Sequence record: NC_019517.1
Length of the DNA stretch: 64,000 nt
DNA from: Escherichia phage FV3
Reading direction: 5' to 3' (one strand)
In this document: positions 29,201 through 32,270 of the stretch, piece by piece
How positions within the stretch are numbered: the stretch's first letter is position 1
Layout: every line of letters starts with the position of its first letter
Program-made: the position numbers and the translations under genes
The notes under the pieces: model-generated
Databases searched by the model: none
What the model saw: the letters and a program-made list of their open reading frames with translations, nothing else
Told to the model about the DNA's origin: nothing

Positions 29201-29277
29201 TGGTCTCCACGGAGTGATTCGAACACTCGACCTCCTGATCCCAAATCAGGCGCTCTACCAAGCTGAGCTACGCGGAG
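29201..29277 (-). tRNA. tRNA-Pro: tRNA-Pro (anticodon UGG)
   Basis: Hand-folded cloverleaf: 7-bp acceptor stem, T-arm with TTCGAAT loop, anticodon loop UUUGGGA, encoded CCA. Confidence 0.7.
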
Positions 29278-29288
29278 TATTTATAATT

Positions 29289-29363
29289 TGGTGGCCCTGG
29301 GTGGAATTGAACCACCGTCTGGCGATTATGAGTCGCTTGCTTGAACCTTCCAGCTACAGGGCC
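29289..29363 (-). tRNA. tRNA-Met: tRNA-Met/Ile2-type (anticodon CAU)
   Basis: Cloverleaf with perfect acceptor stem GGCCCTG/CAGGGCC, anticodon loop CUCAUAA, encoded CCA. Met versus lysidine-Ile cannot be distinguished. Confidence 0.65.
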
Positions 29364-29364
29364 A

Positions 29365-29440
29365 TGGTGCTGATAGCAGGACTCGAACCTGCAACCTATT
29401 GATTACAAATCAATTGCACTACCAATTGTGCTACATCAGC
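29365..29440 (-). tRNA. tRNA-Thr: tRNA-Thr (anticodon UGU)
   Basis: Cloverleaf: acceptor GCTGATG/TATCAGC, D-arm GCAC/GTGC, anticodon stem ATTGA/TCAAT with loop UUUGUAA, T-loop TTCGAGT, encoded CCA. Confidence 0.7.
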
Positions 29441-29447
29441 AAAAAGG

Positions 29448-29544
29448 TGCTAGGTGATGGAATCGAACCACCTATGTATTCAACGACTACCTCGTCTATT
29501 TTCAGGATTAAAAATCCTCGCCCTTGCCAAAGGGCTTACCTAGC
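29448..29544 (-). tRNA. Atypical tRNA-like gene (97 nt; possible UUU/Lys anticodon, about 30-nt extra arm, no encoded CCA)
   Basis: Perfect 7-bp acceptor (GCTAGGT/ACCTAGC), canonical D-arm (GCCC-TTTGGCAA-GGGC) and T-arm (GGTGG-TTCGATT-CCATC), but anticodon stem is 4 bp plus a mismatch and an unusually long region lies between anticodon arm and T-arm. Confidence 0.4.
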
Positions 29545-29642
29545 TCAGTATGTTGACCATGTTGCTAGTCGGCGATGACGACTGTAACATTTGATAATCC
29601 GGTTCTGCTTCCGGCTTTCGCTTAATTACAAGGTCAACAATA

Positions 29643-29733
29643 TGGCTGAGGGTAATGGAATCGAACCATCATCGAGTCATCCTCAACGGGACGGTTTTCA
29701 AGACCGCTTGAGCACCATTGCTCCCTACCCTCA
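29643..29733 (-). tRNA. tRNA-Ser: tRNA-Ser (anticodon UGA), class II
   Basis: 91-nt cloverleaf with long variable arm; anticodon stem GCGGT/ACCGT, loop CUUGAAA; encoded CCA. Confidence 0.65.
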
Positions 29734-29847
29734 TTTATAAACAATACTGATAATGACACTGATTTTCGAGCAGTTAGTGACTAGTATAAACGACGATAAA
29801 TATCAATGCCATTATCTGTATGATTTATGCATTTAAAAATATAAATT

Positions 29848-29934
29848 TGGTGGGGAGTGGTGGAGTCGAACCACCCGAGTCGCAATGACAATAGATTTAC
29901 AGTCTACACCGCTACCTCTACGGGATAACTCCCC
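29848..29934 (-). tRNA. tRNA-Tyr: tRNA-Tyr (anticodon GUA), class II
   Basis: 87-nt cloverleaf; acceptor GGGGAGT/ACTCCCC, anticodon loop CUGUAAA, T-loop TTCGACT, encoded CCA. Confidence 0.65.
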
Positions 29935-29938
29935 AATT

Positions 29939-30013
29939 TGGCACCCCGTACTGGACTCGAACCAGTGTCAACGGCTTAGAAGGCCGCTGCTTTATCCACT
30001 AAGCTAACAGGGC
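29939..30013 (-). tRNA. tRNA-Arg: tRNA-Arg (anticodon UCU)
   Basis: 75-nt cloverleaf; anticodon stem GCGGC/GCCGT, loop CUUCUAA; T-loop TTCGAGT; encoded CCA. Confidence 0.65.
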
Positions 30014-30109: not shown

Positions 30110-30451
30110 TTAACTATTGCCAACAGGTTGTATTTCTGTGGTAAACGGCATAAAAGGTGCTGGTTTTTCAGCCTCTTCCACTACCACCTCTTCTTCCTCT
30201 TCACCAAACATCTCATCATATTCTTCCTGCATTCGGTCTGCCTTATCAAGAACATACTCTGCAATGCTTTGACGAATATTTTGTTTGGTTTTCGGATCCA
30301 ACATCAGCTCTCTTAAAACTTTGTGAGCTTCTGGAACCATCGCTATAAAAGATTCCTTCATGTCAAGAATGTTCTTCTCTAGCTGAATGGCGTTGGACTC
30401 CTCTTTCAGAGGTCTGCCTCTACGGCGACGCTTTTTGGTTGTATCCGCCAT
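30110..30451 (-). CDS. Small AT-hook-like basic/acidic protein (113 aa)
   Basis: Likely start at ATG 30451 (MADTTKKRRRRGRPLK...) with GGAGG SD; ORF-track start at 30508 is a TTG inside the -35 hexamer. N-terminal RGRP motif with Arg/Lys run, Glu-rich C-terminal tail. Confidence 0.45.
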   Translation of the reverse strand: MADTTKKRRRRGRPLKEESNAIQLEKNILDMKESFIAMVPEAHKVLRELMLDPKTKQNIRQSIAEYVLDKADRMQEEYDEMFGEEEEEVVVEEAEKPAPFMPFTTEIQPVGNS

Positions 30452-30479
30452 GTTTCCTCCATTATCACGTGATAGGTGG

Positions 30480-30508
30480 ATTTTATCACGGCAAATACTG
30501 ATTGTCAA
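30480..30508 (-). promoter_or_regulatory. Sigma70-type promoter for AT-hook protein gene / tRNA transcription unit
   Basis: Minus strand TTGACA (30508-30503), 17 nt, TAAAAT (30485-30480), then SD and ATG at 30451; a GC hairpin (30511-30539) abuts the -35. Confidence 0.55.
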
Positions 30509-30796
30509 GTTCGCCGCAGGGTGGTATTCCCTGCGACTTGCCTAGCGTCCTAGACCAACAAGACCCAACAAGTGGGTTACCAGAGACCCATTACCGCGCT
30601 TTGGCTCGACCTTATTACAGGTTGGCTGGGGTCACATCGTCATGTGCTGGCTGCCCCTACCATTTTAAGTGTGGTGCACTATCAAGCCCTCTAAGGGGAA
30701 CTCAGACTTCTCCGAACCCTGTTTCAAAGCATCCGGAGATAAAGCCATCAAACTCATCTTTAAATTGGATATTCATCATGATACACGAAAACAACC

Positions 30797-31039
30797 TCAT
30801 TGTAAAGCACAAATAAATAAAACATACTTAATTTGTTTGTTATCGGGCTCAGGGTAGAAGTAGAAGATCTTGCTATCACCAATCTGAACACCACCATCCC
30901 AACAACATAAACCATAACCCGTATTCATACAAGCTAAGTCGTTGGCAAAATCTATTGCATCATCTAGTGCACGAAATTCACCTTCATCTTCTAAATAATC
31001 CTCATTCATGGAACGGAAAACGAGCTTAACCTTAAACAT
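30797..31039 (-). CDS. Hypothetical protein (80 aa)
   Basis: Small acidic ORF in early minus-strand region. Confidence 0.3.
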   Translation of the reverse strand: MFKVKLVFRSMNEDYLEDEGEFRALDDAIDFANDLACMNTGYGLCCWDGGVQIGDSKIFYFYPEPDNKQIKYVLFICALQ

Positions 31040-31115
31040 AGCATTACCTGTAGACCTCGTAAGTTAAAATTGTATCACATCATATTGCAGATCTTATCAG
31101 GTAACATTATTTTTG

Positions 31116-31304
31116 TCAACAGATTCCGGCCTTATCCCTCCTGTCTGCGTATTCTTTAATCGCAACCTCACCTGCATTGGTAACCAGATCTTCAAAGTAA
31201 TTCTCAAGCTCCTCGTCAATGTCCGGTGACCAGCTCTTTTTCCTGTCAGTGTGAATTGCAGACTTGTTGAACTTATTACAGTTCTTTGCTACCGGATTGT
31301 TCAT
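31116..31304 (-). CDS. Hypothetical protein (62 aa)
   Basis: Short ORF; no motif. Confidence 0.25.
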   Translation of the reverse strand: MNNPVAKNCNKFNKSAIHTDRKKSWSPDIDEELENYFEDLVTNAGEVAIKEYADRRDKAGIC

Positions 31305-31893: not shown

Positions 31894-31989
31894 AGCTGCC
31901 TCCTCTTCAAGTTATAGAAAAACTCACTGTATCGCTTTGTAACGAGCTTTTCTATCAAACTGGTGCGATTGCCTTACTTGGTAGAGTTT

Positions 31990-32270
31990 ACACAGCTGTG
32001 GGGAGATTTAGGAGCCTTCTTGTCCGTTTCCACACATAAACTTTAACCAAACTCGCGCGGGAGTCTCTCAACCGACTCCTTACGGCGCTGGCAAGCTTTC
32101 GTCGGTGGTCCACATTAGTGCTCGGCCTTTGGCCTGCGCTATCGCTTCGCTCCCACACATGTTAACAGTCCTGCATGTATGCACTCCTGTTATTGTGTGC
32201 ACTATGGAGGCCCGGCATCTCGCCCCTCGTAGGCGAGTGCCAATGAGGGGCCGACACTACCCATAATAAG
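31990..32270. other. ORF-free GC-rich structured segment (candidate ncRNA or replication-associated structure)
   Basis: About 280 bp richer in GC than surroundings, with multiple nested inverted repeats (ggagtc-N8-gactcc, ctcgcc-N7-ggcgag, gcccctc...gaggggc, ggcctttggcc); no ORF of 60 aa or more on either strand. Confidence 0.3.

What the first reader, a model, noticed from the sequence alone, without database searches (positions are those of the whole stretch)
30110..30796. AT-hook-like small protein gene preceded by a GC-rich ORF-poor leader with direct repeats
The minus-strand gene likely begins at ATG 30451 and encodes MADTTKKRRRRGRPLK... with an RGRP AT-hook-like motif and a Glu-rich tail, driven by a clear TTGACA-17-TAAAAT promoter. 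Upstream (30509-30796) is a 288-bp GC-rich segment with a hairpin abutting the -35 (30511-30539) and direct repeats (CCAACAAG twice). A plus-strand 104-aa ORF here looks like a GC-rich artefact. The protein could be a nucleoid- or DNA-binding early factor and the upstream region a regulatory or ncRNA element.
Basis: partly seen in the sequence, partly recalled or inferred. Interest (0 to 1): 0.4.

Follow-up and report, generated by a model that had tools for sequence, protein, structure and literature searches.

The report
Conserved pseudoknotted RNA in phage tRNA clusters
The "GC-rich leader" is a compact, knotted non-coding RNA whose core is nearly identical in unrelated phages (rV5-like, T4-like, Klebsiella and environmental phages), usually sits among tRNA genes and matches no catalogued RNA family, while the neighbouring small basic protein is a real gene of unknown function, not a convincing AT-hook protein.

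Summary
**Observation.** The plus-strand 104-aa ORF is an artefact.

**What the GC-rich segment is.** It is not a leader of that gene, because the promoter lies between them. It is a ~190-nt structured RNA on the minus strand (30701-30509).
- Its ~80-nt core (30657-30577) has helices P1 and P3 with strong covariation, hairpins P4 and P5, and a pseudoknot.
- The invariant centre, ACCU-NURRNA-AGGU-C.A..-GGUAA, recurs in Vequintavirus, T4-like phages, ~46-kb Klebsiella siphoviruses, a jumbo-phage contig and many environmental phages. In T4 it is hidden under the annotated 5' end of vs.8.
- I found 107 copies in 22 flank clusters. In 11 of the 18 non-T4 clusters a same-strand tRNA lies within 1 kb.
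- It is absent from E. coli chromosomes, from 185,579 bacterial and archaeal species genomes, and from Rfam 15.
- Some lineages give it its own promoter or terminator.

**Function.** Unknown. My best guess is a stable trans-acting RNA of the tRNA cluster. A ribozyme or a cis-acting role is not excluded.

**The protein.** It belongs to PHROG 3330 and is restricted to Vequintavirinae. In distant relatives it is embedded in tRNA arrays. Its RGRP motif is not conserved, but GRPLKEESNAI is.

The parts
30509..30701 (-). Full conserved non-coding RNA region (~193 nt) in the Vequintavirus form: 5' block, pseudoknotted core and three 3' hairpins
   Evidence: Near-invariant across Vequintavirus. The 5' block and core are shared with a divergent Vequintavirinae lineage whose flanking genes are only about 66-72% identical. 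No conserved ORF on either strand.
30658..30701 (-). 5' conserved block GUUCCCCUUAGAGGGCUUGAUAGUGCACCACACUUAAAAUGGUA
   Evidence: Almost identical in L064, L092 and L101. In those loci it begins at the predicted start site of a TTGACA-16/17-TATACT promoter. A second copy of the motif follows the core in that lineage. It is single copy in the window.
30577..30657 (-). Core element as matched by covariance model R1 (P1, P2, P3, P4, P5, pseudoknot)
   Evidence: 89.7 bits, E=2.5e-21. The window's own copy was in the model's seed. 54 further matches in other phages.
30654..30657 (-). P1 5' strand (GGGG); pairs with 30628-30631 (CCCC)
   Evidence: All 5 P1 pairs show changes on both sides across 50 distinct sequences, e.g. 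GGGAA/UUCCC, GGGAG/CUCCC, AAAGC/GCUUU, GAGUG/CACUC, GGAAC/GUUCC.
30628..30631 (-). P1 3' strand (CCCC)
30647..30651 (-). Pseudoknot 5' strand (GCCAG) in the loop enclosed by P1; pairs with 30579-30583 (CUGGU)
   Evidence: Lineage-specific complementary pairs at the same position: GUGAGGG/CCCUUAC, UGAGG/CCUCA, UCGCCGA/UCGGUGA, CACAC/GUGUG, AAACCG/CGGUUU, CGGA/UCCG, CGGUUA/UAGCCG, AAACCA/UGGUUU. Cognate median score 12 against 9 for non-cognate pairings.
30579..30583 (-). Pseudoknot 3' strand (CUGGU)
30633..30646 (-). P2 hairpin CACAU-GACG-AUGUG
   Evidence: Replaced by CUACG-GACG-CGUAG in L064, CCUCAU..AUGAGG in T4 and CCUCA..UGAGG in L019. Absent in the Klebsiella-phage class.
30623..30626 (-). 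P3 5' strand (GCCA); pairs with UGGGU 30586-30590
   Evidence: All 4 pairs have changes on both sides. The pair next to the core is AU 29, UA 8, CG 6, UG 6, GC 1, with none unpaired.
30586..30590 (-). P3 3' strand (UGGGU, with the second G bulged in most classes)
   Evidence: register reading.
30609..30622 (-). P4 hairpin ACCU-GUAAUA-AGGU (invariant stem; loop N-U-R-R-N-A)
   Evidence: Stem invariant in 49 of 50 sequences, with one GCCU/AGGC variant. Loop triplet is UAA 64, UGA 7, UAG 5, never UGG, in 76 variants. My searches fixed this stem, so it could not vary in most hits.
30595..30608 (-). P5 hairpin CGAGC-CAAA-GCGCG with a conserved A.G mismatch
   Evidence: G-C/G.U alternation (GU 33, GC 15) in the core set. 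When P5 was left free in the search, the inner helix covaries: GC/GC, GUC/GAC, GUA/UAC, GCG/CGC, GG/CC.
30591..30594 (-). Junction GUAA (part of the invariant GGUAA)
   Evidence: Invariant in all copies. It was also part of the search patterns.
30563..30577 (-). 3' hairpin H1 ACCCA-CUUGU-UGGGU (holds the first 'direct repeat')
   Evidence: L166 has UCCCA..UGGGA, which is compensatory. L113 lacks the hairpin, so it is dispensable.
30540..30555 (-). 3' hairpin H2 GUCUAG-GACG-CUAGGC
   Evidence: GUCCAG/CUGGGC in L001, GCUCAG/CUGAGC in L166, and a G.U intermediate in L002. Two pairs have changes on both sides.
30513..30537 (-).
   Evidence: The stem never varies, so there is no covariation evidence for or against. 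It is not a canonical terminator.
30480..30508 (-). Sigma-70 promoter of the small-protein gene (TTGACA-17-TAAAAT, TG-extended)
   Evidence: The equivalent TTGACA-17-TAAACT is in L101.
30463..30474 (.). Perfect 12-bp palindrome TATCACGTGATA between the -10 and the Shine-Dalgarno sequence
   Evidence: Unique in the window. Near-matches occur at chance level, so there is no evidence for a repeated operator.
30110..30451 (-). 113-aa small protein gene (PHROG 3330): basic N-terminus, three predicted helices, acidic tail
30778..30806 (-). Candidate promoter TTTACA-17-TATCAT that could start transcription about 70 nt upstream of the RNA
   Evidence: 10/12 match. Inferred only.
29201..30013 (-). Downstream tRNA cluster on the same strand (Arg, Tyr, Ser, an odd 99-nt tRNA-like gene, Thr, Met, Pro), preceded by promoter TTGACA-17-TAATAT at 30100-30072

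Best explanation
The GC-rich segment encodes a discrete structured non-coding RNA on the minus strand. It belongs to the phage's tRNA and stable-RNA cluster, not to the small-protein gene.

**Fold (shown by covariation).** Helix P1 encloses a hairpin (P2) and a single-stranded stretch. That stretch pairs with sequence downstream of the core to form a pseudoknot. Between the two pseudoknot strands sits a three-way junction made of P3, P4 and P5. Its sequence, ACCU-NURRNA-AGGU / C-R-A..G / GGUAA, is almost invariant across unrelated phages.

**Expression (inferred).** In the window it is probably transcribed early by host RNA polymerase, from the upstream sigma-70 promoters at 31119 and/or 30806. 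It would be part of a transcript that continues into the small-protein gene and the tRNAs, and would be released by the same processing that matures the tRNAs.

**Mechanism I commit to (inferred).** The released RNA is stable and acts in trans. The double-pseudoknot scaffold presents the invariant junction and the P4 loop as a binding surface. The partner would be something conserved in many bacteria, most plausibly a component of the translation or tRNA-processing machinery, or a tRNA-targeting defence nuclease. The RNA would complement the phage's tRNA set as a decoy, sponge or cofactor.
For: **Cross-family conservation.** A 44-bp core is 88-97% identical (mostly about 93%) in the T4-like phage records among 699 hits (117 of those are full-length Vequintavirus matches), while the flanks are unrelated. 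Pattern scans found it in Klebsiella siphoviruses, a 360-kb contig and many environmental contigs.

**Structure.** 96.1% of cells are paired, against 80.1% in shuffles and 30-48% in slid controls. All P1 and P3 pairs change on both sides. P5 covaries when it is not fixed by the search. The pseudoknot is complementary in every lineage with different sequences.

**Strand.** Frequent G.U pairs (P5: GU 33, GC 15) and a G.U intermediate in H2 fit only the minus-strand RNA.

**Non-coding.** Indels are not multiples of three, the reading frame differs between lineages over the conserved bases, and the ORFs are broken.

**Autonomy.** No neighbouring protein is shared between classes. There is a dedicated promoter ending about 7 nt before the conserved block in L101 and L064, and an 11-bp terminator 12 nt after the element in L065.

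**tRNA linkage.** A same-strand tRNA lies within 1 kb in 11 of 22 clusters, which is 11 of 18 non-T4 clusters. No locus has an opposite-strand tRNA. The element can lie before, inside or after the array.

**Phage-specific.** It is absent from 5,426 E. coli genomes and from 185,579 species genomes, apart from 3 likely chance hits.
Against: - There is no expression, processing or stability data.
- No binding partner is identified.
- The single-sequence folding energy is not unusual (z = -0.71).
- The window copy has no canonical terminator and no strong promoter of its own.
- In T4-likes the element is 6-8 kb from the tRNA cluster and sits directly upstream of vs.8, which would also fit a cis role.
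- The model-based alignment leans towards the structure it was built on.
- The pseudoknot statistics use related sequences.
- P4 and most of the junction never vary, partly because the searches required them, so their pairing is inferred from complementarity only.
Confidence: 0.45

Rival explanations
1. It is a new self-cleaving ribozyme, or a dedicated processing element, that cuts polycistronic early and tRNA transcripts. This would resemble the hammerhead and HDV-like 'theta' ribozymes found beside phage tRNAs.
For: - The order of strands (P1 5', PK 5', hairpin, P1 3', inserted domain, PK 3') is the nested double-pseudoknot topology of HDV-like ribozymes.
- It is compact, about 80 nt.
- Nucleotides at a junction are invariant.
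- It is associated with tRNA arrays.
- Tandem copies occur occasionally.
- Theta ribozymes next to phage tRNAs are documented (PMC10879173, abstract).
Against: - Rfam ribozyme models give no hit even at E<=10.
- The G.U wobble that closes P1 in HDV-like ribozymes is absent (GC 21, AU 15, GU 1).
- No conserved C lies in the linker that would correspond to J4/2.
- The most conserved part corresponds to HDV's dispensable P4.
- The distance to the nearest tRNA is usually 45-600 nt rather than abutting it.
Confidence: 0.17
2. It is a cis-acting RNA element on the nascent transcript. It could be a put-like or boxA-like processive antiterminator that protects long untranslated tRNA transcripts from Rho. 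Alternatively it could be a 5' stabiliser or translational operator for the gene downstream (vs.8 in T4-likes).
For: - It lies directly downstream of a consensus promoter in L101 and L064.
- It is upstream of the tRNA array in the window and in L059, L062, L069 and L083.
- In T4-likes it is always immediately upstream of the conserved vs.8 start.
- A terminator lies just downstream in L065, which a modified polymerase could read through.
Against: - In many lineages it lies after or inside the tRNA array (L061, L065, L089, L120, L133, L143, L145, L150, L172).
- A promoter separates it from the next gene in the window, L101 and L111.
- The downstream gene differs completely between classes.
Confidence: 0.13
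3. It is a ligand-binding aptamer, either a riboswitch or an RNA sponge for a small molecule such as a nucleotide signal.
For: It has a small three-way junction with invariant junction-proximal nucleotides, braced by a pseudoknot. This architecture is typical of aptamers (established knowledge of riboswitch folds, applied by inference).
Against: - There is no consistent expression platform and no consistent downstream gene.
- It matches no Rfam riboswitch.
- Its position within tRNA arrays is atypical for riboswitches.
Confidence: 0.07
4. It is a DNA-level element, such as a regulatory region of the small-protein promoter, an origin, a recombination or homing site, or a remnant of a mobile element.
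For: It abuts the -35 of a strong promoter in the window and in L111. Its high identity across unrelated phages could reflect horizontal transfer.
Against: - Compensatory changes that maintain helices, and G.U pairs that would be A.C on the other strand, point to selection on a single-stranded transcript.
- The flanks of the invariant core are lineage-specific yet complementary, which argues against recent transfer.
- In most lineages there is no adjacent promoter.
- T4 oriE lies elsewhere, near repEA (PMC3016281).
Confidence: 0.04
5. It is protein-coding: the plus-strand 104-aa ORF, the small minus-strand ORFs, or the annotated N-terminus of vs.8 in T4.
For: Stop-free stretches exist: 104 aa on the plus strand, and 30 and 36 aa on the minus strand. 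Some records annotate small CDSs here, and T4 records extend vs.8 over the element.
Against: - There are no family matches.
- Frames are broken or switched in close relatives.
- The same conserved nucleotides are read in different frames in different T4-likes, with 1-nt and 35-nt indels.
- The vs.8 similarity between T4-likes starts at MRTFLTG, downstream of the element.
Confidence: 0.02

Closest known systems
HDV-like / theta self-cleaving ribozymes (phage tRNA-adjacent)
   Same: - Small RNA with a nested double-pseudoknot strand order.
- Found in phage genomes near tRNA genes.
   Different: - No match to Rfam HDV models.
- No G.U wobble at the base of P1.
- No conserved catalytic C in the equivalent of J4/2.
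- Conservation is concentrated in the domain equivalent to the dispensable P4.
- Not directly abutting tRNAs.
T4 stable RNAs C and D (rnaC, rnaD) in the T4 tRNA cluster
   Same: Phage-encoded, non-tRNA RNAs of unknown function associated with a tRNA cluster. What I know of rnaC and rnaD comes from my own knowledge of the T4 literature.
   Different: - The model finds nothing in the T4 tRNA region (OL964735 64000-74000).
- The T4 copy of this element lies 6-8 kb away, between denV and vs.8.
HK022 put RNA / rrn boxA-type processive antitermination elements
   Same: - Promoter-proximal structured RNA made of adjacent stem-loops.
- Lies upstream of long, partly untranslated transcription units (window, L101).
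   Different: - No sequence or model match.
- Often located after or inside the tRNA array.
- Pseudoknotted three-way junction rather than two simple stem-loops.
- The comparison rests on my recollection of those systems and was not tested here.
AT-hook DNA-binding motif (for the small protein)
   Same: A GRP tripeptide embedded in a run of Arg and Lys at a disordered N-terminus.
   Different: - RGRP is not conserved (KGRP in most lineages).
- No Pfam AT-hook hit.
- The invariant block extends to GRPLKEESNAI.
- The gene sits in tRNA arrays.
- An arginine-rich RNA-binding peptide, like that of lambda N, is an equally good formal analogy.

Membership tests
Any Rfam 15 family | Covariance-model match at or near the family threshold | tested here: not met
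   No hit over the element at gathering thresholds or at E<=10 in the window. No hit at E<=1 in T4-like copies or in nine divergent copies.
tRNA / tmRNA | Cloverleaf detected by ARAGORN or Rfam RF00005 | tested here: not met
   Seven tRNAs were found at 29201-30013 and none at 30509-30701.
HDV-like ribozyme | Nested double-pseudoknot strand order | tested here: met
   P1 5' - PK 5' - hairpin - P1 3' - inserted domain - PK 3'.
HDV-like ribozyme | G.U wobble closing P1 at the cleavage site | tested here: not met
   The outermost P1 pair is GC 21, AU 15, GU 1, UA 1.
HDV-like ribozyme | Conserved catalytic cytosine in J4/2 | tested here: not met
   The linker between the P3 3' strand and the PK 3' strand is 1-8 nt, variable, and lacks a C in several classes, e.g. 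T4 AAAUA and the Klebsiella class U.
HDV-like ribozyme | Self-cleavage | not testable with these tools
   Requires in-vitro transcription assays.
T4 rnaC / rnaD stable RNAs | Homology to the RNAs encoded in the T4 tRNA cluster | tested here: not met
   Model R1 gives no match in L121, the T4 tRNA region.
Type III toxin-antitoxin antitoxin RNA (ToxI-like) | Tandem array of short (~35-45 nt) direct repeats | tested here: not met
   One copy per locus, except for three T4-like loci with two copies about 115 nt apart. The octamer repeat in the window is not conserved.
Independent sRNA gene | Own promoter and own terminator | tested here: inconclusive
   A promoter lies directly upstream in L101 and L064. 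A terminator lies directly downstream in L065. The window copy has only a 10/12 promoter about 70 nt upstream and no terminator.
AT-hook protein (Pfam PF02178-type motif) | Conserved R-G-R-P core flanked by basic residues | tested here: not met
   The window has RRGRP, but 11 of 21 aligned family members have GKGRP. Only G-R-P is invariant. No AT-hook hit in Pfam at E<=1.
AT-hook protein | Binding to the AT-rich DNA minor groove | not testable with these tools
   Needs EMSA or footprinting.
Lambda N-type antiterminator | N-terminal arginine-rich motif plus a cognate boxB-type hairpin and Nus/RNAP-binding regions | tested here: inconclusive
   An arginine-rich N-terminus is present. There is no sequence or profile similarity to any Pfam or PDB family. 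The protein and the RNA element occur independently of each other.

The most novel reading that the evidence does not exclude
The element founds a new class of functional RNA carried in the tRNA arrays of virulent phages, including T4. It would be either a new self-cleaving ribozyme or a trans-acting decoy that neutralises a bacterial tRNA- or translation-directed defence. The stop-codon-like U-R-R triplet displayed in the P4 loop would be part of the recognition surface.
Probability: 0.2. Interest if true: 0.9.

Novelty: categorically new. Interest (0 to 1): 0.66.

Why it matters
Phage tRNA arrays are now recognised as counter-defence and translation-support modules; for example, phage tRNAs let phages evade retrons (PMC11555353, abstract). 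A non-tRNA RNA that rides in these arrays, has a near-invariant core across unrelated phage families, and is present even in T4 would be an unrecognised component of that toolkit.

It is directly testable in the best-developed phage model.

It also corrects annotation. The T4 vs.8 N-terminus and several small "hypothetical proteins" in rV5-like genomes overlie an RNA gene.

If it proves catalytic or ligand- or protein-binding, it would add a new structured RNA class with a compact double-pseudoknot fold.

Tried and rejected
- **T4 origin oriE and its early RNA.** I recalled these as lying near 62-65 kb. The Kreuzer and Brister review places oriE near repEA and mentions no such RNA at denV/vs.8. 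Rejected.
- **Second model hit in the window, 38254-38321(-), E=0.007.** It lies antisense inside a 427-aa ligase-like ORF. I treat it as chance.
- **Homology to T4 rnaC/rnaD.** No model hit in the T4 tRNA region.
- **A protein partner encoded next to the RNA.** vs.8 is found only in T4-likes and the 113-aa protein only in Vequintavirinae. The RNA is absent within 2.5 kb of the protein gene in GAP31 and Erwinia lineages.
- **Host origin.** No match in E. coli genomes.
- **By-eye resemblances.** P4 resembles the tRNA-Tyr anticodon loop (CUGUAA) and the 16S rRNA 3' region (GUAACAAGGU). I dropped both: the 'anticodon' varies (GUA, GUG, AUA), and a 10-mer match to rRNA is expected by chance by my own estimate.
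- **Palindrome TATCACGTGATA as a repeated operator.** It is unique, and near-matches occur at chance level.
- **One viral scan was wasted** on a mis-spaced pattern.
- **Fold search of the protein model.** Not run, because confidence is too low (pLDDT 66, pTM 0.36).
Full report
**Context.** The window is a Vequintavirus, an rV5-like coliphage: 98% identical to phages YP-6 and HMD-6, and 97.5% to Bas59. Around the finding every gene is on the minus strand. A series of sigma-70 consensus promoters (31119, 30806, 30508, 30100) precedes a cluster of seven tRNA genes at 30013-29201.

**Checking the observation.**
- The 113-aa gene (ATG 30451, stop at 30110), its Shine-Dalgarno sequence and its TTGACA-17-TAAAAT promoter are as described.
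- Relatives annotate the same CDS as a hypothetical protein. It matches PHROG 3330 end to end.
- The segment 30509-30700 has 51-53% GC against about 36-43% around it.
- The hairpin at the -35 and the duplicated octamer exist. The octamer duplication is not conserved in close relatives.
- The plus-strand 104-aa ORF has no family match, and its frame is not maintained in relatives.

**The unexpected result.** A sensitive BLAST of the segment hit 117 Vequintavirus genomes and also several hundred T4-like phages.
- The T4-like hits are confined to a 44-bp core (window 30586-30629) at 88-97% identity, mostly about 93%.
- In T4 the match lies just after denV, inside the annotated 5' end of vs.8.
- The real, conserved vs.8 start is 120 nt downstream, at MRTFLTG, NC_000866 position 64792.
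- The stretch between carries 1-nt and 35-nt indels and is read in different frames in different T4-likes.

**How widely it occurs.** Pattern scans of viral, metagenomic and genomic collections recovered the core in many phages.
- These include ~46-kb Klebsiella siphoviruses, a divergent Vequintavirinae lineage, a 360-kb contig and many environmental contigs.
- 185,579 bacterial and archaeal species genomes gave only three hits, which I take to be chance (GC-rich MAGs, none with the P4 hairpin context). E. coli genomes gave none.
- In total I counted 107 copies falling into 22 clusters of unrelated flanks.

**Structure.** Sequences flanking the invariant core differ completely between lineages but remain complementary.
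- A covariance model seeded from 11 sequences found 54 copies.
- On that alignment, 96.1% of cells are paired, against 80.1% in shuffles and 30-48% with slid partners.
- All five P1 pairs and all four P3 pairs change on both sides. The P3 pair next to the core is AU 29, UA 8, CG 6, UG 6, GC 1, and never unpaired.
- P4 (ACCU/AGGU) is invariant. P5 looked invariant only because my patterns fixed it. With P5 left free, its inner helix covaries (GC/GC, GUC/GAC, GUA/UAC, GCG/CGC, GG/CC) behind a conserved A.G mismatch.
- The stretch just after the P1 5' strand is complementary to sequence a few nucleotides beyond P3 in every lineage, with different sequences each time. This is a pseudoknot. Cognate pairings score higher than non-cognate ones: median 12 against 9, Mann-Whitney p=2e-9, on non-independent data.
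- G.U pairs are frequent, and a G.U intermediate links two H2 variants. The folded strand is therefore the sense (minus) strand.
- Caveats: the alignment was fitted to the model, and the single-sequence folding energy is unremarkable (z = -0.71).

**Genomic behaviour.**
- The element does not travel with any protein gene. It travels with tRNAs.
- A same-strand tRNA lies within 1 kb in 11 of the 18 non-T4 clusters. No locus has an opposite-strand tRNA.
- The element can sit before, within or after the array.
- In Klebsiella siphoviruses it lies with tRNAs and small ORFs in a reverse-oriented island between tail genes.
- In the divergent Vequintavirinae lineage, a TTGACA-16/17-TATACT promoter ends about 7 nt before the conserved 5' block.
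- In L065, an 11-bp terminator follows 12 nt after the element.
- In the window and in L111, the element runs straight into the next promoter.
- This pattern fits a discrete RNA module better than a leader of any particular gene.

**What it is not.**
- It matches no Rfam 15 family at permissive thresholds, in any lineage.
- It is not a tRNA.
- It is not related to the T4 tRNA-cluster RNAs.
- It shares the strand order of HDV-like ribozymes but fails their defining features.
- I found no description in the searchable literature. This search does not cover subscription journals.

**How it probably works.**
- Shown: a conserved, strand-specific, pseudoknotted fold with an invariant three-way junction, autonomy from neighbouring genes, and linkage to tRNA arrays.
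- Inferred: it is co-transcribed with early genes and tRNAs and released by processing. It then acts in trans, through the invariant junction and the P4 loop, on a partner common to many bacteria. I put this at about 0.45.
- Rivals: a new ribozyme or processing element (0.17), a cis-acting antitermination, stabiliser or operator element (0.13), an aptamer (0.07), a DNA-level element (0.04) and coding sequence (0.02).

**The small protein.**
- Homologues are confined to Vequintavirinae-type phages.
- The invariant residues are GRPLKEESNAI after a basic run, several helix positions, and a C-terminal PF(T/S)T(D/E)I. RGRP is often KGRP.
- AlphaFold gives a disordered basic N-terminus, three helices and a disordered acidic tail at modest confidence. 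There are no PDB or Pfam relatives.
- In the Cronobacter, Erwinia and metagenomic lineages the gene sits inside the tRNA array. tRNA-Cys lies about 85 nt upstream. tRNA-Tyr starts 3-10 nt after the stop codon in the Cronobacter and metagenomic lineages. The RNA element is absent from these loci.
- The 'AT-hook, nucleoid-binding' reading is therefore unsupported, and an RNA- or tRNA-related role is at least as likely. Its function remains unknown.

Noticed in passing
window 31985-32265 (-): A second GC-rich (about 55%), ORF-poor patch. It is conserved at 90-97% in 117 Vequintavirus records only and is mostly unannotated there. Its folding z-score is -2.08. It may be another non-coding RNA.
   Followed up: partly
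window 30741-30761 (-): The 21-mer AAAGATGAGTTTGATGGCTTT is almost identical (one A/G difference) in the divergent Vequintavirinae lineage, although the flanks have diverged. It encodes KDEFDGF: an 8-codon ORF with a Shine-Dalgarno sequence in L064, L092 and L101, and part of a 25-36-aa ORF in the window. It could be a micro-peptide or a regulatory site.
   Followed up: partly
T4 NC_000866 64792-64938 (L122); L003: The annotated start of T4 vs.8 (64912) lies inside the RNA element. Conservation among T4-likes supports a start at 64792 (MRTFLTG...). The vs.8 protein has Walker-A- and Walker-B-like motifs (GGRQSGKS, ILYIIDEP).
   Followed up: partly
L124, L125, L127, L129 (homologues of window 30110-30451): The PHROG 3330 gene is a constant resident of the tRNA array in distant Vequintavirinae. 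tRNA-Tyr starts 3-10 nt after its stop codon in L124, L127 and L129, which suggests the mRNA 3' end is made by tRNA processing.
   Followed up: partly
P4 loop, window 30613-30618 (-), and all family members: Loop positions 2-4 are always UAA, UGA or UAG (64, 7 and 5 of 76 flank variants) and never UGG, although UGG was allowed in the last scan. This may reflect a GNRA-like fold or a stop-codon-like display. The number of independent events is too small to judge.
   Followed up: partly
L068 5086-5258, L070 8968-9186, L117 310-528: Three T4-like contigs carry two tandem copies of the element. The second copy has a variant core, e.g. GCCUGUAAUAAGGC CAGUCCGCGAC GGUAA in L068.
   Followed up: partly
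L139 3624-3655 (-): An Rfam abiF RNA motif (45.4 bits, gathering score 37) sits beside tRNA-Asn in a phage contig that also carries the element. This hints that tRNA arrays collect other small RNAs.
   Followed up: no
L019 611-693 (-), L005 4879-4961 (+): Weak matches to group II intron domain V/VI (E=0.1-1, below gathering) about 600 nt downstream of the element in two T4-like contigs.
   Followed up: no
window 29446-29544 (-): A 99-nt tRNA-like gene that ARAGORN calls with a 4-base anticodon (atcc). It is annotated as tRNA-Lys in Bas59 and left unannotated in YP-6.
   Followed up: no
L061 9535-9610: A Klebsiella-type phage contig encodes a CUA-anticodon (amber suppressor-like) tRNA. Its copy of the element has UAG in the P4 loop. 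This may be coincidence.
   Followed up: no
window 31073-31084 and 30463-30474: Two early promoters are each followed, just after the -10, by a related dyad: TATGATGTGATA and TATCACGTGATA. The match is not statistically distinguishable from chance.
   Followed up: partly
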